Source: a virus
DNA: 64,000 bases
Reading direction: 5' to 3' (one strand)
Virus genome (UHGV): UHGV-0298424
Shown here: positions 9,883 to 61,463 of the stretch, piece by piece
Numbering within the stretch: the first letter of the stretch is position 1
How the letters are laid out: every line of letters starts with the position of its first letter
Made by a program: the position numbers and the translations under genes
The notes under the pieces: generated by a model
Databases searched by the model: none
Seen by the model: only the letters and a program-made list of their open reading frames with translations
Told to the model about the DNA's origin: nothing

Positions 9883-9953
9883 AATTCACTCCTAAAGAAT
9901 GTCTCACGTAGATAATATCTGTCTGACTTCTTTTTGAAATTGAGGTAGTAAGA

Positions 9954-19002: not shown

Positions 19003-19038
19003 TCTAATAACTCCAATGGTGTTACACCTGGATAATAT

Positions 19039-19707
19039 CTATCTAAGAATATTTTTAATGAAAAAAGGATCGGCTGTAAACTCCTTCACTTGTGAGTCAT
19101 AACCCGAATGTATTTGATCGCTACTGAGCAAATACTGGTCTAGGTCGTGCGGAAGAATCCAAGAATCACCTTGCTTAAAAATACCATAATCTGCTGTTCC
19201 TGCGGAAAAAATGATTTCCTCTGGAAACGAATAGACACGGCGTAAGGCAAGATCGGATGGCTTTAACACGATTAATCGAACGGGATGTTGACTGACTGCC
19301 TCTTTAATAAACTGTTCACGATTAAACCAAATTATTTTTTCGGGGTAAGTTTCGAATTCAGCCCATGCCCGCGTGATAACTAATTTGGAAATCTTTCTCA
19401 ATTCTTCAGAACGCTCTGCGTAGCCGATGCACTCCTTGCGTACTTCATGATTTTCTATCGATGTTGTGAATTTTTGGAATAGGTGTTGTTGGAAAAAGCC
19501 GTTCTCCGGGATATCACAACCCGCGTTGTATAGTGCAATGATCTCCCACAACAACGAAAGAGAAAACACAAATGCTAACTTTTCCACAACTTCCCAATCT
19601 TCGGAGTAAGGGGCTTTAAAGCCCCAATACTGCCGTGCGTTATACATAAAGTGAGTTTGTAAAAACCGAGGGGCTTTTGACAAGACCTCACTATAAACGA
19701 TCAGCAT
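19039..19707 (-). CDS. hypothetical protein
   Basis: 222-aa ORF. Confidence 0.4.
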   Translation of the reverse strand: MLIVYSEVLSKAPRFLQTHFMYNARQYWGFKAPYSEDWEVVEKLAFVFSLSLLWEIIALYNAGCDIPENGFFQQHLFQKFTTSIENHEVRKECIGYAERSEELRKISKLVITRAWAEFETYPEKIIWFNREQFIKEAVSQHPVRLIVLKPSDLALRRVYSFPEEIIFSAGTADYGIFKQGDSWILPHDLDQYLLSSDQIHSGYDSQVKEFTADPFFIKNILR

Positions 19708-28464: not shown

Positions 28465-28537
28465 TTCCGTATTCCGTAAGACGAAATGACGGCGCGGACA
28501 GCTAATACTCCTTTGTTGTGTGCCCTAATGATAATAT

Positions 28538-29098
28538 CTATTTAAAAGAGTTTGGAATTAATGACTCTGCTTCTCGGTACAGCTTATCGGGTAAGTATAA
28601 CGTGTAGTGTTGCCTCCTCGGTTCAAGTTTTTTGTAAAGCCACAAGAAGATTTCTTGCCTTTCCCAGGAATCTAACCACCCATTTGCCATTCCCAGTGGA
28701 GGGATAGCAACGCTGGTATCCAGTTCCTCAACACAATCTGCTAATGCGGTAATGCCCGCAGTAACATAAGAAACCTTGGACTTTAAACGCCAATGTGTTT
28801 TCGTGGGGAGCAAGATGCACTTTTCATCAGGGTAAACGTAAACACTTCCAATCTTGATTTCGTCTTCGCGACACCGCTTACGGTAATCTTGATAAAGGTT
28901 GGGGTAGCGTTCACGGCACGCCAGTGCAATACCGCGACCCATTGCTCCTACACAGTTAATGGTAACGACTTTATAGTCTTCGGGCGCATTAAAAAGATCG
29001 TTACCAATTTTAGATTCTTTACGTACCGTTAACATAACGAATCGGCCATAGTTGATGTGTAGTATTAAAACGTGTACCGCCGATTGATAGCTCGACAA
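28538..29098 (-). CDS. macrodomain protein (TARG1/OARD1-like ADP-ribose hydrolase family)
   Basis: GNDLFNAPEDYKVVTINCVGAMGRGIALACRERYP and AIPPLGMANGWLDSW resemble recalled TARG1 signatures; true start may be ATG at 29035. Confidence 0.5.
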   Translation of the reverse strand: MSSYQSAVHVLILHINYGRFVMLTVRKESKIGNDLFNAPEDYKVVTINCVGAMGRGIALACRERYPNLYQDYRKRCREDEIKIGSVYVYPDEKCILLPTKTHWRLKSKVSYVTAGITALADCVEELDTSVAIPPLGMANGWLDSWERQEIFLWLYKKLEPRRQHYTLYLPDKLYREAESLIPNSFK

Positions 29099-37166: not shown

Positions 37167-37190
37167 CTAAGTAATATATATCTGAAATTA
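37141..37190 (+). promoter_or_regulatory. hairpin plus conserved TAAGTAATATATATCTGAAAT motif (copy 1)
   Basis: GTGAGAGT...ACTCTCAC stem followed by the motif; near-identical element at 41520-41590. Confidence 0.35.
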
Positions 37191-37834: not shown

Positions 37835-38608
37835 CTAATAATTAAGTTTTACATCGGCAATAAACAGCAACTGTTTACCGTGTTGCTGCACTTCTTTCCA
37901 ACCTAGTTTCATAGCAGCGTCAACAACATCTATCATGCTGTAACGAGACATCAACGCGGTTGATTTTGTTCCTGACATTAAGTAAAGCGGCTCGTTGGGG
38001 CAACGGTCGCGTGCATCAGGAAGTTCCCGAGAGACTGCTGAGCCTTCGGGTACGGTAACAACATGAATCACGGTAAATGGTCTTTTGTGGGTTAAATAAA
38101 TACGAAACCCAACGTGTTCAGACTCATGAAAGACTTTCTTTACAACCACATCTTTTAGTGTCGTCTGAACATCAATCCCAGGTAATATCGTGGATTCGCG
38201 AGAAACAAAACAACGACTATTTTCAACCATGGAGAAATAATTACGTATCGGTAAACTGGCGTTATGATCGCGCAGTTTTTTGCTCAGTAGATCGAAGTTC
38301 AGTTCTTTAACTTTCTCTAGCCATTCTTTGGCTTGTTGTATGTAATAACTACCAACGGTGCGATAAGTCAATACCTTGCCTGTGCTTACTTTCCAAAGTT
38401 TAACGCTTAGTGAATTCGGCTTATAGCGACGATACTCACCCCGCGTATAGTTGATGCGCTCGTAACGCTCTACATCGTCAACGGGCGCAGATTCGATCGA
38501 TTGTAATTGCAACGTACGATCTAATCTATCGGCGAATAGTAGTGATGTTAGCGGACCTTCGATCAAATACGGTTCGGTTTTAAAGATATCATCTAGATGG
38601 ATTTTCAT
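37835..38608 (-). CDS. hypothetical protein, QLLF-tail paralog family member 1
   Basis: N-terminus MKIHLDDIF and C-terminus GWKEVQQHGKQLLFIADV shared with three adjacent genes. Confidence 0.45.
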   Translation of the reverse strand: MKIHLDDIFKTEPYLIEGPLTSLLFADRLDRTLQLQSIESAPVDDVERYERINYTRGEYRRYKPNSLSVKLWKVSTGKVLTYRTVGSYYIQQAKEWLEKVKELNFDLLSKKLRDHNASLPIRNYFSMVENSRCFVSRESTILPGIDVQTTLKDVVVKKVFHESEHVGFRIYLTHKRPFTVIHVVTVPEGSAVSRELPDARDRCPNEPLYLMSGTKSTALMSRYSMIDVVDAAMKLGWKEVQQHGKQLLFIADVKLNY

Positions 38609-38630
38609 TTCTATTTCCTTCTTAACAAAA

Positions 38631-38649
38631 GCCGCGACTAAAGCGCGGC
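38631..38649 (-). terminator. intrinsic terminator hairpin
   Basis: GCCGCG-ACTAAAG-CGCGGC; T-rich tract on minus strand. Confidence 0.4.
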
Positions 38650-38675
38650 AGTTAGAGAAAGTCTATTTTTACTTA

Positions 38676-39827
38676 TTAGAGGTCAGCAACAAACAACAGC
38701 TGGCAGCCGTACTTTTGTACGTCCGCCCAACCGTAGTCTTTTCCGATTATAGGTAGATGTAAAAAATCCAGCTTCTCGTCTTTCGCTTTTAGTTTCGCCA
38801 TTAACGTATTGGACTCCTCAGCACTGAGCAGTAATGCGGGCTCTTTTTCAGTACGTCCTTCTGCGGTTGGGAAGAAATTGTAATAGCTGCGAGTAGGTAA
38901 ATCGACAGAAAAACTACGATTGCCTATTCTGGCGATGAACGCAACTCCTTCACAGTTAGCATCTACACTACACGACCATCCCGCCTCCGTTAAAAGGTCT
39001 TTTAACAGACACCACACTTTAAGTTGGTTCTTAGAAACTGTACGGTAAATAGCAAGATGTTCAGGAAGTAAATGTACGCCCATAACCACGTTTTCAGATT
39101 TCTCGTCAAGCAACTCTGGATGCTGTATCGGGAACAATAATTCAGTGATACCCACGTTATCAATTTTGTTAACAAAATCAGTTAATTCATCTTTTAAGGT
39201 ACACACGGATTTTTCTCCTTTGTCTTCAATAATCAGGTGGGGTTCGCCGCTAATTAAAATGTGGTAAACGAGATCGTCAGTAGAACGGTAAGTGAGCTTG
39301 ATTGCTTTATCACTTAATATTTCGTAGCGGAAGAAACTTTCGTACCAACTTGAGCCGAAATCGTTTTGTGTGAGTTCCTGCTCAACTTTGATGGTTTTTG
39401 CTTCAAAGCCGATTAACTCGCTTAATAACGCGAGTTCTTGTTTAGTTAAAATAGTTACACCGTGAAAGGGCACTTGTTCAAGCTGAAAACATAACTTAGT
39501 GACTTCACCATTTGGGAAGACCTTAAACATAATCTTCCGGTTGCTACTCTTTTCCCTAACAACAAGTTTACGGTAATTTAGTCCACAATTTGTGTAAGAC
39601 GTGAACTGGTAACCTTCAATTTCTTCATCGAAAGTACAGACATCGACAGGCGCGATAATCTCATTGTATTCACTAAGTACACAGCAGCCCAATTTATAAC
39701 CAAACAACGTATGTTGTAAAAAATAGTCGAGGGTTAAGCTTGGTAGTGGCCAAGCCCGATTATAGCATCTGTCCATCAGTTCTTTTAGGTACTTGGCATG
39801 TCTTGGTTTAGAAATAATATTTCGCAT
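38676..39827 (-). CDS. hypothetical protein, QLLF-tail paralog family member 2
   Basis: 383 aa; C-terminus FFPT...GWADVQKYGCQLLFVADL; appears to contain an internal duplication of the domain. Confidence 0.45.
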   Translation of the reverse strand: MRNIISKPRHAKYLKELMDRCYNRAWPLPSLTLDYFLQHTLFGYKLGCCVLSEYNEIIAPVDVCTFDEEIEGYQFTSYTNCGLNYRKLVVREKSSNRKIMFKVFPNGEVTKLCFQLEQVPFHGVTILTKQELALLSELIGFEAKTIKVEQELTQNDFGSSWYESFFRYEILSDKAIKLTYRSTDDLVYHILISGEPHLIIEDKGEKSVCTLKDELTDFVNKIDNVGITELLFPIQHPELLDEKSENVVMGVHLLPEHLAIYRTVSKNQLKVWCLLKDLLTEAGWSCSVDANCEGVAFIARIGNRSFSVDLPTRSYYNFFPTAEGRTEKEPALLLSAEESNTLMAKLKAKDEKLDFLHLPIIGKDYGWADVQKYGCQLLFVADL

Positions 39828-39859
39828 TTTTACTCTCCTTTAGGGGGTTTTTTCGTTAC

Positions 39860-40414
39860 TTAAGCAGGGCAAGCTAAGAACAACAACTGCTGACCGATTT
39901 TACGTACGGTATACCAACCGTGGGCTTTAGCGACCGCGATCAACGTTTCCCAGTCATCAACATCACATTGCTCGTTCCGAAGTTTTGTAAAGAGTGCTTC
40001 GGCTTCGTCTTGGTTTAATAACTTACCTGGATTATCAGGGGTGGTGCCAGAAGGGGTTGGAAAGAAATCGTATTGACGCGCTAAGAGAAAATCAACCAGA
40101 TACTTGGTGTTCTCTTTATAAACCAGCGTGGAAGTCTTCCCTTCGTGGAAGAAGCTGCCTGTTTTCCAAACGCTATCTTTCAGTAAGCTCTGAAGGTAAT
40201 CTGTAAAGCCCGTTCTAAATGGGATATGCGTTTTACGCGTGATGTTGCGACGCAGCGGGGTTTCCTCTACAGCTTGTACACTTACCCCTACTATCATCGC
40301 ACCTGGCTGGATAATGGTATTGGTCAGTACGGTATAAGGACGGACAAAGAAATGTTCGCCTACGCCTTTTTCAAGGGTTTGGATAATTTCATTTTTCAGT
40401 TCAGTTTGAAACAT
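39860..40414 (-). CDS. hypothetical protein, QLLF-tail paralog family member 3
   Basis: 184 aa; C-terminus FFPTPSG...HGWYTVRKIGQQLLFLA. Confidence 0.45.
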   Translation of the reverse strand: MFQTELKNEIIQTLEKGVGEHFFVRPYTVLTNTIIQPGAMIVGVSVQAVEETPLRRNITRKTHIPFRTGFTDYLQSLLKDSVWKTGSFFHEGKTSTLVYKENTKYLVDFLLARQYDFFPTPSGTTPDNPGKLLNQDEAEALFTKLRNEQCDVDDWETLIAVAKAHGWYTVRKIGQQLLFLACPA

Positions 40415-40445
40415 GGTATATTCTCCTTTTTTTCGGTTTTCTTAA

Positions 40446-41183
40446 TTACGCGGTTTTAATTAACAGCAGATAGTCCTTCGTAATCTCAGCACAACTCCAC
40501 CCTCTCATCGTGGCGATTTTACGAAGATCAATTTTCTCGTGATATTTCAATAAGGGATCGTCTGAGTTAATCTCAACCAGGTGGGTGGCTTTAGAAATCG
40601 TTTCCACATCTGGGATCTGTTTTGCTAAGTCGGATGCAATCAGTTCAATAACGCGGTAACCCTTTAACACAGAAACATAGATGCGCAAACCATATAGCGT
40701 GCCCTCGTCTTCTAATGGACAAAGATCGATGCCGGGTCCAAGCAGTGATAACTCGACGTTATCGGGAAGGTTTTCTGCATTTCGGAGTAACCCTATCCCA
40801 TTTCTAAACAGAGGGAAGTAAGAGAATAGTGGTGGTAAAGCCCAACCGTTCCCAATAAGCACATCATCGATACTAGTAGGCGTGTTCGCAAGAAGACGAA
40901 TGTGGTCAGCCACAACTTCAAGTTCGGCATCACTGATCAACTTATAGATTAACATGACACTGGTTTCGGTATTAATAACGAAGAAGACGCGGTTGGCGTA
41001 ACTGCCTATCACGTATTCGTCAATCATACAGTCGATAACGTCAGTGTCTGGATAATCTTCAGGTTTAATTGTTCCAGCATCGATTAACTTAGCAGGTTGC
41101 GATTGTTTTAATAGTTCGTTAACAACAGTAGAAGAAAGTTCTAAACTGGTGTTAGTAAAGATATCGTCTAATAATTCTCTCAT
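40446..41183 (-). CDS. hypothetical protein, QLLF-tail paralog family member 4
   Basis: N-terminus MRELLDDIF, C-terminus RGWSCAEITKDYLLLIKTA; first gene of the minus block. Confidence 0.45.
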   Translation of the reverse strand: MRELLDDIFTNTSLELSSTVVNELLKQSQPAKLIDAGTIKPEDYPDTDVIDCMIDEYVIGSYANRVFFVINTETSVMLIYKLISDAELEVVADHIRLLANTPTSIDDVLIGNGWALPPLFSYFPLFRNGIGLLRNAENLPDNVELSLLGPGIDLCPLEDEGTLYGLRIYVSVLKGYRVIELIASDLAKQIPDVETISKATHLVEINSDDPLLKYHEKIDLRKIATMRGWSCAEITKDYLLLIKTA

Positions 41184-41279
41184 GATTTACTCGCTAATCT
41201 TAATAAAGGGAAGTCTATTATTATGGATTGTAAAAGAGGTATAAGGAAGTCACTACGTTCCTCTGGGAAGAGTATGTCG

Positions 41280-41340
41280 GTATACTACGTATACCTCCGC
41301 TATTTATATCCGTATACATAATGCCCCCTACCCCCTACCG
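41280..41340. promoter_or_regulatory. cluster of GTATAC palindromes and CCCCTACC direct repeats
   Basis: three GTATAC hexamers within 40 bp (41280-41317) followed by CCCCCTACCCCCTACC; lies in the 420-bp divergent intergenic region. Confidence 0.3.
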
Positions 41341-41519
41341 GTATCCCGAGTAGCAGAATAAAGGGACAGACTGTAAAATTTTAGTACCTGTTATCGGAAG
41401 GTACTAAATGGAGTGTAGTCTTTAAGCCGTTTGTGCAGCTCATTGAGACTTTCTTTTTTTAGTAGACATGATCTGTCTCCCCAAATGGTTTAATCAATCC
41501 GTTTCGAATGAAACGTGTC

Positions 41520-41590
41520 CGTAGGGACTGAAGTGCCAGTTCAGTCCCTATTCACTTAAGTAATATATATCTGAAATCAATTCCGATCTA
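41520..41590 (+). promoter_or_regulatory. hairpin plus conserved TAAGTAATATATATCTGAAAT motif (copy 2)
   Basis: AGGGACTGAA-loop-TTCAGTCCCT stem followed by the motif, about 15 nt upstream of the first plus-strand structural gene. Confidence 0.4.
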
Positions 41591-41602
41591 AGGAACGTCC
41601 CG

Positions 41603-42568
41603 ATGGAGAAATCCAGTGTTGATTTTTTCTCAATTGGTATCGTCGCGGAAGACAAACCCCGTGGTACAGATCGGGTAAAAGTGATACCAATTGAAACTAA
41701 TTTTGCTAACCCTACCGTGGTGCAATCTGTTTCTTCAGCAACTGAAAAGACACATGAAACATCTGGTGCAACAGATAACCTAACCATTAAGACGGGTAAC
41801 ACGATAACAGCAAAGTGGTGGAAGTTTAACTCCAACCGAATTAATTCCCCTGACGTTAAACGAGAAGATTACGTTATCTTGTTACGTTTGGGGAAAACCG
41901 ATATTTATTTTTGGATTGATCTGAACTTCGCTAACGTTAAGCGATTAGAGGATGCGGTTTACGCGTGGTCTGCTGACCCTGAAAACCAGATGGCGGATGA
42001 CCTGTCCAATGCGTATGTGTTGAATATCTCGACGATTGACAAACATATCACGCTAAGAACAAGTATGGTGAACGGTGAGAAAGCGGCGTGGTTATTTCAG
42101 TTTGATAATGCAAATGGCACGTGGCAGTGTGTTGACCACAAAGGGAATAAGTATTACATTAACTCGGTGGAAGACGATTTAGGTTTTGAGAATGCGATGC
42201 TCTCAAAAGTGAACATCAACAAAGAAGATGCGTTCATTTATTCAAAGCGTTCTATTAACCTGGAAACGAAAACGATTAATGAAAAATGCGAAGTTCGCAA
42301 TACGGAAGCAGCGAAATCCGTTACGTTTAAAACACAAACCTGGTTAACGGAAGCAGGGAGTTCGACAACATTTAAAACGCCGAACTTTAAACAAGAAGGG
42401 AAGGAAGCGATGTTCACCGGTAATCTGGAAGTCGCTAAGAACTTCAAATACGGTGGTACGGGCAAAGGCGTCGGTGTCTTTACGGTTAAAGATGCCGTTA
42501 TTTCTGGTATTACCTTTAGCGTTCACATTCACCAAGGTAAACATGGCCCGACATCACCTCCGCAATAA
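41603..42568 (+). CDS. hypothetical protein (possible baseplate/tail component)
   Basis: 321-aa ORF, first of the plus-strand structural block; AAGGAA SD. Confidence 0.45.
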   Translation: MEKSSVDFFSIGIVAEDKPRGTDRVKVIPIETNFANPTVVQSVSSATEKTHETSGATDNLTIKTGNTITAKWWKFNSNRINSPDVKREDYVILLRLGKTDIYFWIDLNFANVKRLEDAVYAWSADPENQMADDLSNAYVLNISTIDKHITLRTSMVNGEKAAWLFQFDNANGTWQCVDHKGNKYYINSVEDDLGFENAMLSKVNINKEDAFIYSKRSINLETKTINEKCEVRNTEAAKSVTFKTQTWLTEAGSSTTFKTPNFKQEGKEAMFTGNLEVAKNFKYGGTGKGVGVFTVKDAVISGITFSVHIHQGKHGPTSPPQ

Positions 42569-42774
42569 TTCCCCTTTTTCTTACGTTGTTTTTATATATT
42601 GTGACCTGACGTTGGTAAAACTTTTTATCAACACTTTTCTTAAACCCATCGTTTAGTTAAGCAGGCCACTTTTTTCGCGCACTCTACTCCTCCCTACGGG
42701 GAGGAGCTATCTTATGCTTCGGTTGTAATACACGTCGGTCTTAGACCACTAACCTTTTGAAATGGAGAGCTGTT

Positions 42775-42984
42775 ATGTCTATTAAAGAGTTCTCTTCTGC
42801 TGAGCATATTCCAGAAGAGTTTAAGAAAATCGGTAACGTTAGCGCTTTCGGCGATACCGTTGATCATGTAACTGGTAAACTGGCTGCTGAAGCCGAAAAA
42901 ATTGGCGGCGACGCATTCAAAGTTATAGGTATTTCCGGCAACAACAAACTGCACGGTAACGCGATTGTCTACAAAAAAGACTAA
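42775..42984 (+). CDS. DUF1471 (YdgH/BhsA/McbA-like) domain protein
   Basis: ATG 42775 after GGAGAG; KIGNVSAFGDT...LAAEAEKIGGDAFKVIGISGNNKLHGNAIVYKK resembles the enterobacterial DUF1471 fold; no signal peptide. Confidence 0.5.
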   Translation: MSIKEFSSAEHIPEEFKKIGNVSAFGDTVDHVTGKLAAEAEKIGGDAFKVIGISGNNKLHGNAIVYKKD

Positions 42985-43034: not shown

Positions 43035-44297
43035 TTATTTTTTTCGTGCCCTAAAGCGATGCATTTCTAAATACACTTTTTCCCAGGGACCGAATGGACC
43101 AACGATTGCTTGAGCGTCGTTAATCTTCTTCTGATTATACCACCGGGCTTCACGAAAGACGTAGTTTTGACTGTCGAATTCGGTAGTGTTAAATACCCAC
43201 TCACCTTCCTCCCACGTAGGCCAATAACCTACCGTCTTACCAAATCGATTATTTAAGTACCCTAATGGTTTTTCAGAATCAGGATCGTTGGGGTCCTTGA
43301 GATAACAACGTCCCCAAACGGCGTTATGCGAAACGCCCACAACTTCTTCTTCTAAATACGGATTATCTACCGTAAAGATAAAAGAGGATTCGTGCAGTAA
43401 AAGCGCTTTCAGTGTTTCAGGGTTACGAATACGTTGAACGTTGGTAGGCGATGATAAATCCCCTACACCAATGCTATCCCAGTCGTAATAACGGCGGGTT
43501 TCCAGAACGGTCCGTGCAAGATCAAAATTCGGTAAAGAAATCATGATCGCGCGGTCAGAGAAATAACCGTCCGGGGGTAACCAACGTAACAATCCGCCTA
43601 TGACGAAACCCACGGTTTTCCCCGTAATAGACTCAGGCAGCGATATCATTAACGTGGAGTAATAGTCGCGTGTAGTGTCGAGCTTGTTTAGCGTAAGGTT
43701 GGCGATTGGGTAAGTTTTAACATTCCCTAGCTGACCAAAAACCATACAGCCAATATCTGGCGTACATGCTCTCCGTACAATTTTACCGGCCCCAGGCAAC
43801 CGCACACCTACGGTATCCGTCTGGTGCGGTACCCATTGACCGTTAATGTTGTACAGCACACTATTACGGTATTTGTCTTTCCACTTGTCCTCACAAACGA
43901 CGACAACGTCATCAGCATCGTCTAGGCTGAAATCTTGACTGTGGTGGTACCCTGGTGGACACAGATATGTTTCGACAGGTACATCGGCATTAATTGATTG
44001 GTAGTGTGCCCAACTGAATTCCAGTTTCGGCAATCCAGCCTTTAGAGTGGGAATGACGTTTCCGGCCTTTTCGTTTAACCAATCTTGTAAAGTGTCTGTT
44101 CGGTTTTGTAGTTCGGCAAGATGGTATTGACTGACTAACGTATAGTCTTTACCAAGTGCACTTAAACCGATCTCAAAGGTGTGGTAGTCTGAACACAACG
44201 TAGTTAAAGGTTGCGTGACATCGATGGCTCCCCAGGTACGGGACTCTCGAGAGAAGCCAAAAGCGCTGTCGGGTCGCACTTGATAAGCAGTAGTCAC
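43035..44297 (-). CDS. hypothetical protein (420 aa)
   Basis: only minus-strand gene inside the structural block; bidirectional terminator 43004-43028 at its 3' end. Confidence 0.45.
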   Translation of the reverse strand: MTTAYQVRPDSAFGFSRESRTWGAIDVTQPLTTLCSDYHTFEIGLSALGKDYTLVSQYHLAELQNRTDTLQDWLNEKAGNVIPTLKAGLPKLEFSWAHYQSINADVPVETYLCPPGYHHSQDFSLDDADDVVVVCEDKWKDKYRNSVLYNINGQWVPHQTDTVGVRLPGAGKIVRRACTPDIGCMVFGQLGNVKTYPIANLTLNKLDTTRDYYSTLMISLPESITGKTVGFVIGGLLRWLPPDGYFSDRAIMISLPNFDLARTVLETRRYYDWDSIGVGDLSSPTNVQRIRNPETLKALLLHESSFIFTVDNPYLEEEVVGVSHNAVWGRCYLKDPNDPDSEKPLGYLNNRFGKTVGYWPTWEEGEWVFNTTEFDSQNYVFREARWYNQKKINDAQAIVGPFGPWEKVYLEMHRFRARKK

Positions 44298-44366
44298 AGC
44301 TCTTTTTCCTCTATAGATTCAAGTCATAGTATGAACTTCGACGCCCACGGACTATAGGAGTAGATA

Positions 44367-47300
44367 ATGGCTGTCGTCTTAGACCCACACTTCAAAAAAC
44401 CGGGGAATAAAATAACCGGTGAAGCGGTCGCCGTCATTGGTACGAAATACCGAATGTTGGTACCTGCCCACGCCCCTTTTTTCACCACATCCCTGGTGGT
44501 CAAGAGCGGCGGCAAAATACTGACCTTAGGCGACGATTACGTTATTACACACCCGTACGAGACTGGTATGTTGCGCACAGCCTATCTCATTCACGGGATG
44601 ATTTGGATTGTTAATGACAAATACAAATCGAACTTTACTGTAGATTACCATGCTGTTGGTTGTGGCCAGGCTACTCAGCAGCAGATTACCGCAGAGCGCG
44701 AGCTTAATAAAGGTAAATACCCCTCCGCGTGTCAGTGGGACACCGTTATCGGAGACGTTTACTTTCCACCGGTCGATATCCAGTTCGATTGGGAGAATTG
44801 GAAAGGTGAACTGGAGCTAATGCAGGCCATTGCTGGGGTAGGCGATTCGTTAGGGGAAGTCGTGAGTCGTCTTAACCCAATCGCACGCAATACACTGGAT
44901 TTGGAATATCGTGCTAATAGCAAGGTTATCACTTCCGAGCAGTATGCTGCGTACGATAATAAAGGCGGTTTCACCTACAACACAGCTCGCCACCGTTATA
45001 GCCTGAGTTATAAAGCGACAACCTTTAACAACTATTCCCTGTCGGTGAAACACAGAATTCCTGCTATTCTGCCAGACATGACAAAGTTGAATCCGAACGA
45101 ACAGATCGATTGGATGCTCTGTTATGCCAACGGCGGTGCAAGTATTCTACGGTTACAGCTAAAACAGCGCAAAATCTCACTGGTCTTAACTGTCGCTATT
45201 GGCAGTGGTTCAACAAACTACGATTATACTTTAATCAACGGTTTAACTGACGATGAGTTAAAAAACGATATCGATTTTAGTGTAACCCGACAACCCGGAA
45301 ACGGCGTTTACGTAATCGTAGTAAAAACAAATAAACAGACCATGGATTATACGTTCAACGTCGATACGCCGCCTGATGAGTTCTCGGCAGGGTATTCGAA
45401 AACGGATGTAGCCAAATGGTTGAAGTCTAAAACGAACATTAACCTGAACTGGTATGCGGCTGAAAACGATTATGTTCAAATTCGTTCTTTACCCGGCGCG
45501 CCGGAGCCTGACGTCGATAACGATGTTTACCAGTTAATAGTTAAGTATCATCAGTTGGTTGAGCAGCTGTATCGTAATGCGCCTGCGCACGAACACGTTA
45601 CACGTAAGGACAACCCACACACAGATACGTGGGGTCCGATCCGTGCGTTAGAGTTGAACGGTATTGCGTCGGATGCAGCATTAGCTTACGGAAAAACGAA
45701 GCCGCAGTTAACGGATTATGTTAATGCTAAGTATCCAACACAAGCGACGCTGACAGCACAAAAGAAACTATTGCGCACGTCAGCTACGAAAACGGCTAAC
45801 GGAACTATTGGAACGCTGCCCGGTTTTACTTCGTTCACGACGGAAGTTGACCCGGTGTCAATGTCGAAATACGTGAGTCCTCGTTTTAGCGAAAGCTACG
45901 TTAGTAATGGTCACAGGTATCACGGTGCGCTTCGTTACACAGGAACGAAGAGTGGATTCGCCACTTCTTTTAATGCGGTACCTGCTAACCTGCAAGATAT
46001 TGACTTTATTGTTACCGGACGTAAAACAGCGTCTGGTAATGAAGCTGTCGGTACGGTTAGCCTACGTTTCTATCAGAAACCTGGTACTAACTCTGGAAAA
46101 TTTATCCAGCTTACAGGTGAAATTTCTGCGGGTAAAGTCGGCGTTAAGTTGGAACTGAACGGTTTTTCGAATCCCACACCGGAAGTTCAGTATCTTTCCC
46201 AAGCTCCTAATCCAGCAATACCGGATGGGGATTTTACGCTGCGTTTTCAACTGAAACGCACAGGGAACGTGTTTGATGTCGTTATTACCATAAACGGCAA
46301 GACATACAGTGCACGTGTTAACTTCACTAACATGGACGCTGCACTAGAAGCATTGGAGAATAGCCACCACTTTAAATCATTGATCAGTAATGTTGCTGAC
46401 AATGTCACTATTAGCTCGGGGAATAAAGGTAACACGGTTACCATTAAGAAAGCGCCCGACGTCGTTGACGGGACCAGTTTAGGTGCCCAGTTTGTCGTTG
46501 ACCCGAAATCCATTAAGTTTATTGGACAAGGTTCAACCGAGGTTAATGCGGGGAATAACCCTGTAACGTTTCAAGCAGGTACTAACCAACTTATATTGTA
46601 TCCTGATGATCGTGGGTTACAGTGGCGTGGTAAGAAACTCTTAGACCCCACTACCGTGGCTCCGTATCTGCCAGGCAATACCGCGGGCGGTACGGGATTA
46701 TTCTACGGTACATCTACAACCACGGTAGAACTTACCGGTAGCGGGATAAAAGCATCGCCGTTCGTAGCGACTTTTATTCTCCCTACCGCGACCGATACAA
46801 CAGCCCTGGCAGCTTGGCAGTTGACCGATGAGTTTGGTACCGCTGAAAACCTTGCAGCAACGCCAGCACTGATTGAAAAACTCGATGCGGAGTTCACCGG
46901 TAAATTAGTTGCGGTTAAATCGTACATTAACGACATGCAACTTACCAGCTCGGTCACTATCGACAAAATTACCTTTGGTTTAGGTAACGTTGCGAATACA
47001 CCCGATGTCAATTTACCGATTTCTACAGCACAACGTGCGGAGTTAGATAAATACTCGCCTAAAGTTCACCAACACCCGTTTACCGCTTTTGGTACTGGGA
47101 ACGCAACCACAGCGAAACGTGGTCTGATTAAATTTGGTCTGGATGTGGATGATGCGACTTTAGCACTCGATGGGAGTGTGGTAATGGCGCAGACTTCCCA
47201 GATTGAAAAATTGGAAAATGCTGTCGGTGGCGTTGACTCGGGTGCTCGCGTTGACATTATTCGTTTCGGCAAGTCTGGTGACGACTTAATTAACGTTACG

Positions 47301-48689
47301 GTTAAAGACAAAATTCTGGCTATGCTCCCCGCTTCAACGTACTTTGTTGGTGGTGAGACGTATGACGTACCGTTAATGTCGGTTAACGTCACTGAACGTT
47401 TCCCGAATCCGAAAACGTTGATCTACGCAGGAATTTTTGTTGATATTGTTGACAACAAAGCGAAGTATGTTATCCACGACAGCTACAATCAGGCTGAAAC
47501 GGATACCATGACGCGCGTGGGAAGACTCGTTGTCAATGAGCTTTCCGAAGTGGACGTAGTGGAATTGCGTAACGTGACACGATTAGGCGAATTCCACGAG
47601 CTGAAAGACCACATCGCTAATGACAACGCACACATTCAACGTTCTGCTTCGCGCGCAGTATTGGGGTTAAGTGATTTAACAGTAGGTGCACCTTGCTGGG
47701 CTTCTGGACTCCAGGCAGTAGTGCGTGGTGAAGCAGATTGGCGTTATGTTGTTCGTGGACAGTATAAAGCATTAGACGGGGTGAAATACGACCAGATCGC
47801 ATCAAAGTGGATTTTCGATGCGAAAGGGGTAAGTGACAACGTTCACGGGTTTATTCACAACTTATTCCCGACTTTCAAAAACGCAGGAATGCGGGTAAGT
47901 TGGGAAACAGAAAGCAACGCAAAAACCGGAACAGTGTTAGAAACTGTTTTAGGTTGTTGGAAGAACACCGACGGCGAGTTTATGCGGTTGTCATTACTTA
48001 TCACTCGCGGTTATCGTTTAACTGACAGTAACGGTGAATATTGTTACGCAGGGTTCGGTTTGAACTTCGGTAGCGGGAAATCGGTAGTGGTAGGTTTCAC
48101 ACCAACGAAGCGTGTTACGCCTGCACCGTGGAGTTCATTACGACCTGACGTAACGTTTACCCACACCCGTGGTGCAAACAACGCAATAACGTTTAATGCA
48201 TCGCTGACTTTAGCTGGCACTGTGTATACTATCGTGGTGTTTTTATCCGCGACAGATAAATACGTAAGCTGTACGGCGGCAGGGGGAACTACGCAGAAAA
48301 TCCCATTAGCCGACCGTTTAACCGGGTTCAATATCGAACCTATCGTTAATGATCCGTATACCCCTATTTACTACGGTTTAGGGGGACTTTATGAGGATGA
48401 GGTTCGTGCCAACATCCGCTCTACAGCAGACAGCGCAACTGCGAACAAAGTCTACGGTACGTTGTTGGACTATGTTAGCAACTATTCCTCATTAAATCGA
48501 GTACGCGTCATGGAATTGTCCGGTGTCAGCTCAGACCCCGAAACGCTTAATGCGTTAGTGGCAACTGAATTTAATAACAACCTGGCAGATTACGCTGCGT
48601 TACCGATACCTCCTTATCTTAACAAGGAGCGCGTAATGTCGTTTATCGACACCGACAATAAAGTGCAGGCGGTAATCATTCGCGATTAA
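44367..48689 (+). CDS. tail fibre protein (1440 aa)
   Basis: TAGGAG SD; N-terminal P-x-x-PFF...G-DY-x-x domain shared with the next three genes; KITFGLGNVANTPDVNLPIS fibre-type repeat. Confidence 0.65.
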   Translation: MAVVLDPHFKKPGNKITGEAVAVIGTKYRMLVPAHAPFFTTSLVVKSGGKILTLGDDYVITHPYETGMLRTAYLIHGMIWIVNDKYKSNFTVDYHAVGCGQATQQQITAERELNKGKYPSACQWDTVIGDVYFPPVDIQFDWENWKGELELMQAIAGVGDSLGEVVSRLNPIARNTLDLEYRANSKVITSEQYAAYDNKGGFTYNTARHRYSLSYKATTFNNYSLSVKHRIPAILPDMTKLNPNEQIDWMLCYANGGASILRLQLKQRKISLVLTVAIGSGSTNYDYTLINGLTDDELKNDIDFSVTRQPGNGVYVIVVKTNKQTMDYTFNVDTPPDEFSAGYSKTDVAKWLKSKTNINLNWYAAENDYVQIRSLPGAPEPDVDNDVYQLIVKYHQLVEQLYRNAPAHEHVTRKDNPHTDTWGPIRALELNGIASDAALAYGKTKPQLTDYVNAKYPTQATLTAQKKLLRTSATKTANGTIGTLPGFTSFTTEVDPVSMSKYVSPRFSESYVSNGHRYHGALRYTGTKSGFATSFNAVPANLQDIDFIVTGRKTASGNEAVGTVSLRFYQKPGTNSGKFIQLTGEISAGKVGVKLELNGFSNPTPEVQYLSQAPNPAIPDGDFTLRFQLKRTGNVFDVVITINGKTYSARVNFTNMDAALEALENSHHFKSLISNVADNVTISSGNKGNTVTIKKAPDVVDGTSLGAQFVVDPKSIKFIGQGSTEVNAGNNPVTFQAGTNQLILYPDDRGLQWRGKKLLDPTTVAPYLPGNTAGGTGLFYGTSTTTVELTGSGIKASPFVATFILPTATDTTALAAWQLTDEFGTAENLAATPALIEKLDAEFTGKLVAVKSYINDMQLTSSVTIDKITFGLGNVANTPDVNLPISTAQRAELDKYSPKVHQHPFTAFGTGNATTAKRGLIKFGLDVDDATLALDGSVVMAQTSQIEKLENAVGGVDSGARVDIIRFGKSGDDLINVTVKDKILAMLPASTYFVGGETYDVPLMSVNVTERFPNPKTLIYAGIFVDIVDNKAKYVIHDSYNQAETDTMTRVGRLVVNELSEVDVVELRNVTRLGEFHELKDHIANDNAHIQRSASRAVLGLSDLTVGAPCWASGLQAVVRGEADWRYVVRGQYKALDGVKYDQIASKWIFDAKGVSDNVHGFIHNLFPTFKNAGMRVSWETESNAKTGTVLETVLGCWKNTDGEFMRLSLLITRGYRLTDSNGEYCYAGFGLNFGSGKSVVVGFTPTKRVTPAPWSSLRPDVTFTHTRGANNAITFNASLTLAGTVYTIVVFLSATDKYVSCTAAGGTTQKIPLADRLTGFNIEPIVNDPYTPIYYGLGGLYEDEVRANIRSTADSATANKVYGTLLDYVSNYSSLNRVRVMELSGVSSDPETLNALVATEFNNNLADYAALPIPPYLNKERVMSFIDTDNKVQAVIIRD

Positions 48690-60857: not shown

Positions 60858-61256
60858 ATGGCGATTGGTTTATCTTCTTTAAAGGCCCGGCTAGATAACA
60901 TAGACTCTACTGCATTAAAAAATACAGGTGCGGTGCAGAACTATATTCGTGGTAAAGCCACTAATAATAGCGATCTGTTTGGAGGACAGCCGAGAAATCA
61001 CTATGACTGTGGAGGTAGCTGTAGCTGGACGTGCTCAAGTTGTTCGGGCGGCTGTACCGGCAACGCCTCCGGCGGCTGCGGTTCTTCCTGTTCAGCGAAC
61101 TGTGTTTCAGGATGTAGTACAGGTTGCACAGGTTGTAGCAGTACCTGCTCAGGAGGGTGCACAGGTAATTGCTCGGGCGGTTGTTCAAGTAGTTGCACCG
61201 GAACATGTTCAGGTTCATGTCGAGGCGGATGTCAGCAATCGTGTACTGGAAGATAA
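60858..61256 (+). CDS. Cys-rich precursor-like protein B
   Basis: 132 aa; same architecture as A with 23-nt identical stretch at the DCGGSCSWTCS codons. Confidence 0.6.
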   Translation: MAIGLSSLKARLDNIDSTALKNTGAVQNYIRGKATNNSDLFGGQPRNHYDCGGSCSWTCSSCSGGCTGNASGGCGSSCSANCVSGCSTGCTGCSSTCSGGCTGNCSGGCSSSCTGTCSGSCRGGCQQSCTGR

Positions 61257-61259
61257 GAA

Positions 61260-61463
61260 ATGATAAGTCTTAAAAACATACGCGACAGATTAGTAACGGC
61301 GGAGGGATATATCACCACCGCTAATGCAAACAACTATATTGCAAACCAAGGAACGGTTTCCTCAACCAACAATCTCGCAGGATTACCTTTAAGTCATTAT
61401 AATTGTAATGGCGGATGTAGTTGGTCGTGCAGCGGTAGCTGTAGTAAGGGGGCGGGGGGGTAA
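61260..61463 (+). CDS. Cys-rich precursor-like protein C (short core, ends in G7 run)
   Basis: 67 aa; starts 3 nt after the B stop; leader ISLKNIRDRL..., core NCNGGCSWSCSGSCSKGAGG; stop directly after the poly-G tract. Confidence 0.5.
   Translation: MISLKNIRDRLVTAEGYITTANANNYIANQGTVSSTNNLAGLPLSHYNCNGGCSWSCSGSCSKGAGG

What the first reader, a model, noticed from the sequence alone, without database searches (positions are those of the whole stretch)
41184..41602. 420-bp divergent intergenic region with GTATAC triplet and nested hairpins
This is the longest non-coding stretch in the window and separates the minus-strand block from the plus-strand structural block. It holds three GTATAC palindromes within 40 bp, a CCCCTACCCCCTACC direct repeat, and several inverted repeats. 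It is a candidate divergent promoter/operator region, origin, or small-RNA locus.
Basis: seen in the sequence. Interest (0 to 1): 0.4.

Follow-up and report, generated by a model that had tools for sequence, protein, structure and literature searches.

The report
Jumbo-phage divergent control region, conserved core
The 419-bp gap is the control region between two opposed gene blocks of an E. coli jumbo phage. It holds a leftward early promoter, a small dead gene, and a 126-base non-coding module of unknown function that related phages keep in front of their baseplate gene.

Summary
Positions 41184-41602 have no ORF and form the longest gap in the window. They contain three GTATAC sites, the run CCCCCTACCCCC, and several hairpins.

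The window comes from an SPN3US/phiEaH2-like jumbo phage of E. coli. The gap has two parts.

1. Right part: a leftward early-promoter cassette. It has the motif AGATATATATTAC, which occurs about 5 times in the window and about 22 times in phiEaH2. An 11-bp stem-loop with compensatory changes follows, then a 25-codon mini-gene. The mini-gene is intact in some relatives, frameshifted here, and deleted in others.

2. Left part: a 126-nt single-copy core at 41241-41366. It is 98-99% identical in relatives whose flanking genes are 87-91% identical. Its skeleton sits upstream of the baseplate gene in several genera. The skeleton is one or two bulged hairpins, a C5-N2-3-C5 box, and a GTAAAA box followed by TATG.

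Two of the three GTATAC sites are the arms of one covarying hairpin, so they are not operators. The proximal late-type TATG is lost in this phage, and a clade-specific TATG lies inside the hairpin.

The divergent-promoter reading is supported by motif evidence only. The operator reading is not supported, and the origin reading has no positive support. The core's function is unresolved. It most likely acts in cis on rightward transcription of the baseplate gene or on that transcript.

The parts
41184..41242 (-). AT-rich 5' leader of the leftward 245-aa gene. It includes a degenerate third copy of the AAGG.AGTC repeat at 41204-41215 and a GTAAAAG box at 41230-41236.
   Evidence: GC content is 29-31%. 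This stretch is poorly conserved and is replaced in the L004-L006 group.
41243..41262 (+). Box A', a bulged mini-hairpin: AA-GGA-AGTC-AC-TAC-GT-TCC-T.
   Evidence: It is invariant in 14 close relatives. The same motif occurs in phiEaH2 and L008. It also occurs, standing alone, in Aeromonas phages pAEv1810 and PS1.
41270..41299 (+). Box A, a bulged hairpin. Layout: outer GTA/TCC, bulge TGTC (41275-41278), inner stem GGTATAC (41279-41285) pairing with GTATACC (41289-41295), loop TAC. It carries two of the three GTATAC sites and a clade-specific TATG at 41273-41276.
   Evidence: All 17 tabulated instances share the architecture GGA | NGTC | stem | loop | stem' | TCC. The instances use 8 different inner stems, all complementary. 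Loop variants TAC and TCC occur among close relatives.
41300..41323 (+). Spacer containing the third GTATAC (41312-41317).
   Evidence: The spacer is invariant within the clade except for CATAATG/CATATTG. Other genera have different sequence and length here, 11-25 nt.
41324..41339 (+). Box B, the C-rich box CCCCCTACCCCC(TACC).
   Evidence: C4-5 N2-3 C4-5 is invariant across 14 diverse relatives. In phiEaH2 only this copy has the Box B form with a 3-nt spacer; two other matches to CCCCC-N2-3-CCCC elsewhere in that genome have a 2-nt spacer. The window has no other copy outside a coding G-run.
41340..41366 (+). Conserved 3' tail of the core, sequence ...TAGCAGAATAAAGGG. It keeps the 35-nt spacing from Box B to Box C.
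   Evidence: My counts on the sequences give a spacing of 35 nt in most genera and 43 nt in Derbicusvirus.
41372..41390 (+). Box C (TGTAAAA) plus a decayed late promoter. TAGTACCTG stands where relatives have TA(G/C)TATGA.
   Evidence: TATG lies 21-30 nt before the baseplate start codon in all other genera, and at -213/-216 in the L004 group. It is absent in the window subgroup. A similar box-plus-TATG arrangement occurs at window 13939 and phiEaH2 112273.
41380..41408 (.). Hairpin 2, with a 10-bp stem. On the minus strand it follows the mini-ORF, whose ancestral stop codon lies in the loop.
   Evidence: Inverted repeat I7 is. The position is kept but the sequence differs in L003 and the L004 group.
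41391..41469 (-). Remnant of a 25-codon mini-gene. The ATG is at 41469-41467 and the SD (CTCCCC on the + strand) at 41477-41482. An extra base in the T7/A7 run at 41454-41460 shifts the frame.
   Evidence: Intact versions are MSTEKKSGLDEVIELFKRYNPAIPR and MFAEQKDGIEEVVRLFRHYSPYLPR in relatives. L157 has A7 and L170 has A5. L146, L168, L169 and L173 have deletions of about 95 bp. tblastn finds no homologue in isolated phages.
41500..41515 (.). Small hairpin CGTTTC-GAAT-GAAACG.
   Evidence: Read from the sequence. It is conserved in relatives that keep the mini-gene and partly deleted in the others.
41522..41550 (-). Hairpin 3, with an 11-bp stem and a 7-nt loop. I predict it is the 5' stem-loop of the leftward early transcript.
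   Evidence: All 121 cells are paired, and 3 pairs show changes on both sides. No shuffle out of 500 reaches the observed covariation score. Many early-promoter copies in phiEaH2 and the window are followed by a stem-loop. Caveat: the two G-U cells are wobble pairs only when read on the + strand.
41560..41572 (-). Early-type promoter motif AGATATATATTAC, of the kind used by the virion RNA polymerase. It reads leftward.
   Evidence: An exact second copy lies at 37183-37171, and degenerate copies at 19044, 28543 and 9924. All are on the minus strand upstream of minus-strand genes. About 22 intergenic copies occur among 28 hits in phiEaH2, nearly all upstream of genes on the coding strand. This matches the literature description of jumbo-phage early promoters (PMC7598289).
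41590..41605 (+). Shine-Dalgarno AAGGA (41590-41594) and the ATG (41603) of the baseplate gene.
   Evidence: The segment is invariant in close relatives.

Best explanation
This is a composite, divergent transcription-control region of a phiKZ-like (SPN3US/phiEaH2-type) jumbo phage.

Leftward. A virion-RNA-polymerase-type early promoter (41572-41560) starts a transcript. That transcript opens with an 11-bp stem-loop, crosses a now-dead 25-codon mini-gene and hairpin 2, and reads on into the leftward gene block. This promoter, stem-loop and mini-gene form a cassette. In this clade the cassette has been inserted between the baseplate gene and its ancestral upstream module.

Rightward. The ancestral module is 41241-41390. 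It has two tandem bulged hairpins (GGA | NGTC | stem-loop | TCC), a C5-N2-3-C5 box, and 35 nt further on a GTAAAA box with a late-type TATG start site.

In most relatives the TATG sits about 20 nt before the ribosome-binding site of the baseplate gene. In this phage that TATG has mutated to TACC. A clade-specific G-to-T change in hairpin A creates a replacement TATG at 41273-41276. If that site is used, the baseplate mRNA starts at G41276. It would carry a 326-nt leader that begins with the 7-bp hairpin only 3 nt from its 5' end, which is the geometry of a 5' stabiliser.

The invariant upstream part (hairpins plus C-box) most likely acts in cis on rightward transcription of the baseplate gene or on its transcript. 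It would be read as a folded single strand by a phage factor.

Shown here: the motifs, their copy numbers, their conservation, the covariation, and the decay of the mini-gene. Inferred by analogy with phiKZ: all start sites, the polymerase classes, and any role of the hairpins.
For: Identity of the phage.

Early promoter: exact or degenerate copies upstream of leftward genes in the window, and about 22 intergenic copies in phiEaH2, often followed by a stem-loop. This fits the description in PMC7598289.

Hairpin 3 covaries.

Mini-gene: it has intact, divergent, same-length versions in relatives. It is frameshifted or deleted in this subgroup.

Core conservation: 97.7-99.2% identity against 87-91% for the baseplate CDS. 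P ranges from 7e-4 to 3e-6.

Skeleton: it is conserved down to 42-45% baseplate protein identity, at fixed positions before the baseplate start codon.

Bulged hairpin: 8 different complementary inner stems.

TATG: it is invariant next to Box C in other genera. It is twofold enriched in the sense orientation in the intergenic DNA of phiEaH2 (50 against 19, P=0.003). The phiKZ late-promoter rule T-3ATG+1 comes from PMC4666361.

Orientation: leftward transcription cannot reach the core in L012, Phobos or Derbicus. There the early promoter lies on the other side of the core. A bidirectional terminator sits beyond the baseplate and DUF1471 genes.
Against: No transcript data exist for this phage group, so every start site is inferred.

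The ATG inside Box A is not conserved: it is AAG or AGG in L009, L011, L014 and Phobos. Box A is therefore not a universal TATG promoter.

The replacement TATG (GAGTATGTC) fits the extended TA(G/C)TATGA(C/A) pattern only partly.

TATG enrichment in the window alone is not significant (15 against 6, P=0.19).

The 5' half of the core matches no multi-copy promoter motif. AAGGANGTC occurs 8 times in phiEaH2 against about 5.6 expected (my estimate), and only the two copies in the element belong to it.

The core shows no significant RNA folding (z of -0.8 and -1.5) and no consensus fold.

The two G-U pairs in hairpin 3 favour the + strand, not the leftward transcript.

Aeromonas phages appear to carry Box A' between two convergent genes, far from their baseplate gene. 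That argues against a strict link to the baseplate gene.
Confidence: 0.5

Rival explanations
1. The 126-nt core is, or gives rise to, a non-coding RNA. On this reading it is transcribed rightward from an A-rich promoter-like box at Box A'/A. It would be a leader-derived or free small RNA. The bulged hairpins and the unstructured C-rich, G-poor tract would be the functional parts, either as a binding platform for a phage RNA-binding protein or as a rut-like tract.
For: Near-total sequence invariance across the whole 126 nt, spacers included, is more than a promoter needs.

The hairpin stems covary and vary in length while the bulge GTC and the loop TAC stay fixed. This pattern fits a protein-bound RNA hairpin.

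Box A' and Box A are preceded by GT(T/A)AAAAG, with the same layout as the Box C + TATG promoter (sequences).

In Aeromonas phages pAEv1810 and PS1 the Box A' block is conserved in a roughly 300-bp gap between two convergent genes. Terminator hairpins flank it, which is the layout of an independent small transcription unit. A colinear second match has P of about 0.02.

5'UTR-derived ncRNA candidates are common in phiKZ and 201phi2-1 (PMC10914365, PMC11512511).
Against: No terminator or other 3' end signal follows the core on the + strand. Rfam gives no match. There is no conserved overall fold.

The Aeromonas match rests on a 22-nt blast hit with E=6. A 19-mer scan of IMG/VR also returned four hits in unrelated contigs. 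I judge these likely chance matches, because by my rough estimate about six such matches are expected.

No complementary target was found. The cis anti-Shine-Dalgarno pairing test was negative.
Confidence: 0.25
2. The core is a DNA-level site such as a replication origin, a packaging signal or another genome-maintenance site. It would lie at the point where the two gene blocks diverge.
For: The core is single-copy and strongly conserved.

It has two or three direct repeats of AAGG.AGTC spaced 27-36 bp apart, next to a stretch of 29-31% GC.

The cumulative GC skew of the window turns at about 40-42 kb.

Several relatives carry 2-4 GATC sites within the element (sequences). The palindromic insertions could extrude as a cruciform.
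Against: The skew turn coincides exactly with the switch in gene orientation. In the whole phiEaH2 genome the skew rises almost monotonically and shows no global extreme at the element, only a local dip that follows a block of opposite-strand genes.

The window clade has no GATC cluster. No replication or terminase gene is nearby.

The element keeps a fixed orientation and distance to the baseplate start codon in many genera. A promoter or leader explains this better than an origin does.
Confidence: 0.1
3. The core works on the leftward strand, as the leader of the leftward operon. It would supply G-rich, Shine-Dalgarno-like boxes and hairpins followed by pyrimidine tracts that act as attenuators. 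In this clade it might also encode a 32-codon upstream ORF (41319 to 41221).
For: In the window clade the leftward early transcript must cross the core to reach gene 41183-40446.

In phiEaH2, SPN3US and STsAS the core lies directly upstream of a leftward 105-aa gene that has no early promoter of its own.

Read leftward, each hairpin is followed by GAC.UCCUU.AUUC.

The 32-codon ORF has GGGGG 4 nt before its ATG. In L004-L006 it is fused in frame to the downstream gene.
Against: In L012, Phobos and Derbicus the early promoter lies between the core and the leftward gene and fires away from the core. The 105-aa gene is absent from about half of the genera that keep the core. The ORF is not conserved outside this clade.
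Confidence: 0.1

Closest known systems
Early (virion RNA polymerase) promoters of phiKZ-like jumbo phages (Ceyssens 2014, as reviewed in PMC7598289)
   Same: Both are highly conserved AT-rich motifs of about 10-13 nt, repeated many times per genome just upstream of non-structural operons. This one has about 5 copies in the 64-kb window and about 22 in phiEaH2.
   Different: The consensus here is (tttc)AGATAKATATTAY(ctaGGTGAg), specific to this phage group. It is usually followed by a stem-loop. Neither the start site nor dependence on the virion polymerase has been shown.
phiKZ late promoters, T-3ATG+1, read by the non-virion RNA polymerase (PMC4666361)
   Same: A TATG immediately precedes the ribosome-binding site of a structural gene. 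TATG is enriched in the sense orientation in intergenic DNA. A divergent overlapping pair, CATAGTATG, lies between two structural genes at 44325-44333.
   Different: An A-rich GTAAAAAAG box 8-25 nt upstream accompanies the baseplate TATG. This is closer to the phiKZ middle motif AAanTTACc. In this window the proximal TATG is lost, and only a clade-specific TATG inside hairpin A remains.
PeSL cassettes of T4-type phages (promoter-early stem-loop units that flank shuffled small ORFs). Recalled from my own knowledge of Arbiol et al. 2010; not checked here.
   Same: Both have repeated units of an early promoter plus a stem-loop next to small, dispensable ORFs. The unit sits at different places relative to conserved neighbours in different relatives. 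The adjacent mini-gene is present in some relatives and absent in others.
   Different: The T4 units use host sigma-70 promoters, whereas these carry a phage-polymerase motif. Recombination at these units is inferred from their differing arrangements and has not been demonstrated.
5'UTR-derived ncRNA candidates of phiKZ and 201phi2-1, including one upstream of tail gene gp182/gp277 (PMC10914365, PMC11512511)
   Same: In both cases a conserved non-coding sequence lies in front of a tail or baseplate gene across genera of nucleus-forming jumbo phages.
   Different: The gene differs: here it is the baseplate protein of phrog_3216, not the gp182 family, judged from PhiPA3 gene numbers 189 and 214. 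No premature terminator is present and no expression data exist. The sequences could not be compared because the figures and supplements are not held.
Phage N4 virion-RNA-polymerase promoters, which are DNA hairpins with a 5-7-bp stem and a 3-nt loop. Recalled from my own knowledge; used only as a lead.
   Same: Both have a hairpin with a 6-7-bp stem and a 3-4-nt loop, fixed flanking sequence, and stems that vary freely.
   Different: N4 hairpins are multi-copy early promoters of a single-subunit polymerase. This element is single-copy, and in some genera its stem is reduced to 2 bp. No evidence shows that it is read as DNA.

Membership tests
Jumbo-phage early (vRNAP) promoter | A highly conserved AT-rich motif of about 10 nt, present in many copies per genome | tested here: met
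   AGATATATATTAC occurs exactly at 41572-41560 and at 37183-37171, with three degenerate copies in the window. phiEaH2 gives 28 hits, of which about 22 are clean intergenic copies.
Jumbo-phage early (vRNAP) promoter | The motif lies upstream of, and is oriented toward, early or non-structural operons | tested here: met
   All window copies are on the minus strand, 25-90 nt before minus-strand start codons. The phiEaH2 copies are nearly all on the coding strand.
Jumbo-phage early (vRNAP) promoter | The motif is centred near -10 of a mapped start site, and transcription depends on the virion polymerase | not testable with these tools
   This needs 5'-end mapping or in vitro transcription.
phiKZ-type late promoter (TATG) | A TATG whose G is the start site, just upstream of a late gene | tested here: inconclusive
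   The proximal site conserved in relatives reads TACC in this window. A clade-specific TATG at 41273-41276 lies 326 nt upstream of the baseplate ATG. Use of either site is unknown.
phiKZ-type late promoter (TATG) | TATG is over-represented in the sense orientation upstream of genes | tested here: met
   phiEaH2 has 50 sense against 19 antisense, P=0.003. The window has 15 against 6, which is not significant.
Repressor operator (three GTATAC palindromes) | The same palindromic half-sites are conserved in relatives | tested here: not met
   Other genera replace GGTATAC/GTATACC with GGTGAC/GTCACC, GGTATCC/GGATACC, GGTACTC/GAGTACC, GGAG/CTCC, GTCT/AGAC or GC/GC. The third GTATAC is not conserved outside the clade.
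Any described RNA family (Rfam 15) | A covariance-model match at or near the gathering score | tested here: not met
   The best E-values are 0.14-7, and all scores are far below gathering. This was tested on the window region, the SPN3US core and the Aeromonas element. No tRNA or tmRNA was found.
5'UTR-derived sRNA of jumbo phages | A start site followed by premature termination inside the leader | tested here: not met
   No terminator-like site was found in the scan. No hairpin plus U-tract follows the core on the + strand. Expression itself cannot be tested here.
Protein-coding gene in the gap | An open frame conserved in relatives | tested here: not met
   The 25-codon gene is conserved in the L004/L005/L006-type relatives and in the E. 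coli episome. In the window it stops after 9 codons because of the A7 run. The 105-aa gene of phiEaH2 and SPN3US is absent here.
Replication origin | Iterons, an AT-rich unwinding region and a skew switch that is independent of gene orientation | tested here: inconclusive
   Two or three short direct repeats and a stretch of 29-31% GC are present. The skew turn is confounded with gene orientation, and the phiEaH2 genome has no global skew extreme at the element.
Cis anti-Shine-Dalgarno leader (T4 gene e type) | The leader pairs with its own ribosome-binding site better than chance | tested here: not met
   Duplex energies against dinucleotide shuffles gave z from -1.0 to +1.6 across the 11 validly tested phages of 13. 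The window clade was worse than the shuffles.

The most novel reading that the evidence does not exclude
The 126-nt core would be a previously undescribed, single-copy element shared by several genera of nucleus-forming jumbo phages. It has a bulged hairpin with an invariant GTC bulge and TAC loop, followed by a C5-N2-3-C5 tract. A dedicated phage factor would recognise it as a folded single strand, for example a small regulatory RNA or a genome-level signal, and its role would go beyond that of an ordinary promoter.
Probability: 0.25. Interest if true: 0.6.

Novelty: new variant of a known kind. Interest (0 to 1): 0.4.

Why it matters
Gene regulation in nucleus-forming jumbo phages is poorly mapped outside phiKZ.

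This region gives a concrete early-promoter consensus for the E. coli, Salmonella and Erwinia group. It also shows an early-promoter cassette that sits in different positions in different relatives, next to a mini-gene caught at several stages of decay.

The conserved non-coding module provides small, testable targets: the GTC bulge, the C-box and the TATG. An E. coli isolate carries a relative of this phage as a 222-kb episome. That offers a genetically tractable host in which to test what controls baseplate-gene expression.

If the core proves to be an RNA or a genome-maintenance signal, it would be a new conserved non-coding element of this phage family.

Tried and rejected
1. Sigma-70 promoters and intrinsic terminators: nothing above chance.

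2. tRNA, tmRNA and Rfam families: none.

3. A consensus RNA fold of the core across 14 relatives: none. Single-sequence folds are not better than shuffles.

4. A small ORF starting at the ATG inside Box A: rejected, because that ATG is AAG or AGG in several genera.

5. A hammerhead-like core (GUC with CUGAUGA/GAAA): the pieces are not conserved, by inspection of the sequences.

6. A cis anti-Shine-Dalgarno role for CCUCC and the C-box: negative.

7. A trans target for the C-box: the only G-run in the window lies inside a coding sequence. phiEaH2 has no matching G-box.

8. Box C as a terminator tail. CGTAAAAAA is the reverse complement of the TTTTTTACG tail seen at real terminators. No hairpin precedes it here, so this was rejected.

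9. A loose three-box pattern scan of IMG/VR: swamped by chance hits in GC-rich phages.

10. A 19-mer Box A scan. It returned the known clade plus four unrelated contigs that I judge to be chance matches.

11. Homologues of the mini-protein: none.

12. Supplements listing the phiKZ and 201phi2-1 ncRNA candidates: not held.

13. GC skew as an origin signal: confounded with gene orientation.

Full report
**What the window is.** The baseplate gene to the right of the gap (41603-42568) matches phrog_3216. Its closest isolated relatives are the Erwinia and Salmonella jumbo phages phiEaH2, Asesino and SPN3US, at 62-73% protein identity. These phages encode multisubunit RNA polymerases; phiEaH2 annotates several RNA polymerase beta-subunit genes. 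Much closer relatives, at 93-99%, exist only as metagenome contigs of about 220-225 kb. One more is a 221,873-bp circular "plasmid" of a urinary E. coli isolate, NZ_CP173450.1. The host is therefore E. coli.

**Check of the observation.** The gap 41184-41602 has no ORF of 45 aa or more and is the longest gap in the window.
- GTATAC lies at 41280, 41289 and 41312. The window total of 17 sites is what chance predicts. Three of them within 38 bp is unlikely (P of about 6e-4).
- The first two sites are the arms of one inverted repeat.
- CCCCCTACCCCC is at 41324-41335, and the hairpins are real.

**Right part of the gap: an early-promoter cassette that reads leftward.**
- The 13-mer AGATATATATTAC (minus strand, 41572-41560) has an exact twin at 37183-37171. 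Degenerate copies lie at 19044, 28543 and 9924. All are on the minus strand, shortly before minus-strand ribosome-binding sites.
- In the complete phiEaH2 genome the same motif, (tttc)AGATAKATATTAY(ctaGGTGAg), gives 28 hits. About 22 are clean intergenic copies, nearly all on the coding strand, and many are followed directly by a stem-loop.
- This matches the published description of jumbo-phage early promoters read by the virion polymerase (PMC7598289). The start site itself is inferred.
- Hairpin 3 (41550-41522) follows the motif here. Across 11 relatives its 11 pairs are always formed, and 3 pairs changed on both sides. No shuffle out of 500 reaches the observed covariation score.
- One caveat: the two single-side changes are G-U only when read on the + strand. 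The hairpin may therefore matter on the rightward RNA as well.

**The mini-gene.**
- After hairpin 3 come a small hairpin (41515-41500), a Shine-Dalgarno sequence and a 25-codon ORF.
- The L004/L006 type and the E. coli episome encode MSTEKKSGLDEVIELFKRYNPAIPR. The L005 type encodes MFAEQKDGIEEVVRLFRHYSPYLPR.
- The two versions have the same length, about half their residues identical, and many conservative changes. It is therefore a real gene.
- In the window and L157 an A7 run breaks the frame after 9 codons; A6 would restore it. L170 has A5. L146, L168, L169 and L173 have deleted about 95 bp that include the gene.
- The gene is therefore dispensable and decaying in this sublineage. A homopolymer sequencing error is still possible, but three assemblies are out of frame and four carry deletions.

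**Left part of the gap: a deeply conserved core.**
- Positions 41238-41370 are 97.7-99.2% identical to relatives whose baseplate CDS is only 87-91% identical. The rest of the gap barely aligns with those relatives. The probability of so few changes at the coding rate is between 7e-4 and 3e-6.
- Across 14 close relatives the only variable positions are the centre of the hairpin loop and four other sites.
- The same skeleton occurs upstream of the baseplate gene in Erskinevirus, Seoulvirus, Machinavirus, Wellingtonvirus, Derbicusvirus and unnamed contigs, down to 42-45% baseplate identity.
- Its positions before the start codon are nearly fixed: Box A at -134 to -150, Box B at -83 to -107, Box C at -38 to -52, and TATG at -21 to -30. 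Relatives at 26-27% identity lack it.
- It is single-copy: one per contig in IMG/VR. In phiEaH2 only this copy has the Box B form of the C-box, and the only AAGGANGTC copies that belong to the element are the two inside it.

**Anatomy of the core.**
- Box A and the following CCTCCG are the two halves of one bulged hairpin: GGA | NGTC | inner stem | loop (mostly TAC) | inner stem' | TCC.
- All 17 tabulated instances keep this layout. The inner stem takes eight different complementary sequences of 2-7 bp.
- The window has two such hairpins in tandem: A' at 41243-41262 and A at 41270-41299.
- Palindromic insertions that keep the flanks adjacent point to a folded single strand, either RNA or melted DNA, rather than a duplex binding site. 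This is an inference.
- Box B is C5-N2-3-C5. Thirty-five nt further (43 in Derbicusvirus) lies Box C, YGTAAAA(AAG), followed within 8-25 nt by TA(G/C)TATG(A/T) and then the ribosome-binding site.

**The rightward promoter.**
- phiKZ late promoters are T-3ATG+1, and every base of the TATG is required (PMC4666361).
- In phiEaH2 intergenic DNA, TATG is twofold enriched in the sense orientation (50 against 19, P=0.003). In the window the trend is the same but not significant.
- A similar box-plus-TATG arrangement drives another gene at window 13939 and phiEaH2 112273. A divergent overlapping pair, CATAGTATG, sits at 44325-44333.
- I therefore read Box C + TATG as the ancestral late or middle promoter of the baseplate gene.
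- In this clade the early cassette has been inserted downstream of that promoter. L004-type phages still have ACTATGA at -213/-216.
- The window subgroup has TAGTACCTG instead, so the site is probably dead.
- The whole clade carries a G-to-T change in the outer stem of hairpin A (GGA to GTA) that creates TATG at 41273-41276.
- If that site is used, the mRNA would start at G41276 with three unpaired bases before a 7-bp hairpin. That geometry is known to stabilise 5' ends in E. coli (my own knowledge; not tested here).

**What the invariant upstream half does is not resolved.**
- Against an RNA gene: no Rfam match, no consensus fold, no significant folding energy and no 3' terminator.
- Against a cis anti-Shine-Dalgarno role: the leaders pair with their ribosome-binding sites no better than shuffles do.
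- Against a leftward function: in L012, Phobos and Derbicus the early promoter lies between the core and the leftward gene and fires away from the core.
- Against an origin: the skew turn in the window coincides with the switch in gene orientation, and phiEaH2 has no global skew extreme at the element.
- For some autonomy: Aeromonas phages pAEv1810 and PS1 have the Box A' sequence in a conserved block between two convergent genes. Terminators flank the block, and it lies 70 kb from their baseplate gene, which has only a 24-bp upstream gap. That match is short (E=6) and a 19-mer scan also returned hits I judge to be chance. I hold its homology at about 70% (a subjective estimate).
- Box A' and Box A are each preceded by GT(T/A)AAAAG, the layout of the Box C promoter (sequences). 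They may therefore be promoter-like themselves.

**Verdict.** The feature is real. It combines three parts:
- a known kind of element, the early promoter with its stem-loop;
- a decaying mini-gene;
- a conserved non-coding module that, as far as I could find, has not been described.

The best-supported role for that module is cis control of the baseplate gene. That role remains unproven.

Noticed in passing
L196 (NZ_CP173450.1 5709-10839); corresponds to window 41238-41372: A 221,873-bp circular 'plasmid' in the complete genome of E. coli strain 98232 (urine, Egypt) is a genome of this jumbo-phage clade. The core is 98.5% identical there and the mini-gene is intact. PGAP annotates nothing in the gap. 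This suggests the host is E. coli and that the phage was carried or co-assembled as an episome.
   Followed up: partly
window 44325-44333: CATAGTATG places a TATG on each strand, between the divergent genes 43035-44297(-) and 44367-48689(+). The same arrangement is present in phiEaH2 at 81110/81112. It is probably a pair of back-to-back late promoters.
   Followed up: partly
window 37171-37183, 19032-19044, 28531-28543, 9912-9924 (all minus strand): These are further copies of the early-promoter motif AGATAKATATTAY, each shortly before a minus-strand gene. The copy at 37183 is followed by a stem-loop (GTGAGAG...CTCTCAC).
   Followed up: yes
window about 34463 and about 22007 (minus strand); phiEaH2 57956 and 92276: Intrinsic terminators in this phage group often end in TTTTTTACG or TTTTTAACG after a GC-rich hairpin. 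The next gene sometimes has a TATG a few bases further on.
   Followed up: partly
window 41454-41460: This homopolymer run varies in length between near-identical assemblies: T7 here and in L157, T5 in L170. None of these lengths restores the mini-gene frame.
   Followed up: partly
window 37835-41183 (minus strand): The leftward genes next to the gap share a C-terminal motif (GW...G.QLLF.A). Two of them (37835-38608 and 38676-39827) match phrog_26772/33648, so they look like a paralogue family. No function is known and there are no Pfam hits.
   Followed up: no
window 42757-42984 (+): A 75-aa protein of the YdgH/BhsA/McbA-like family (DUF1471, PF07338) is encoded just after the baseplate gene. 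SPN3US, phiEaH2 and others have it too. This is a bacterial stress and biofilm protein family found inside a phage structural block.
   Followed up: no
window 60858-61463: Two adjacent Cys/Gly/Ser-rich ORFs lie here (132 aa and 67 aa). The second ends in a GGGGGCGGGGGGG run at 61447-61461, and about 230 bp without a clear ORF follow. This could be a slippage-prone run or a truncated paralogue.
   Followed up: no
L001 3006-3323 and L002 2973-3290: phiEaH2, SPN3US and STsAS carry a 105-aa gene (phrog_18565, function unknown) between the core and the early promoter. It is missing from this window and from about half of the genera that keep the core.
   Followed up: partly
L193 about 12990-13300 (IMG/VR contig 3300035698_011095): An unrelated 14-kb viral contig holds a tandem array of roughly 45-nt units of the form ATAAGGA...CGCTCCGCTCG...CATCTTATGACTGAAC. 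It was picked up by the Box A 19-mer scan. It is probably a chance match, but the array itself is unexplained.
   Followed up: no
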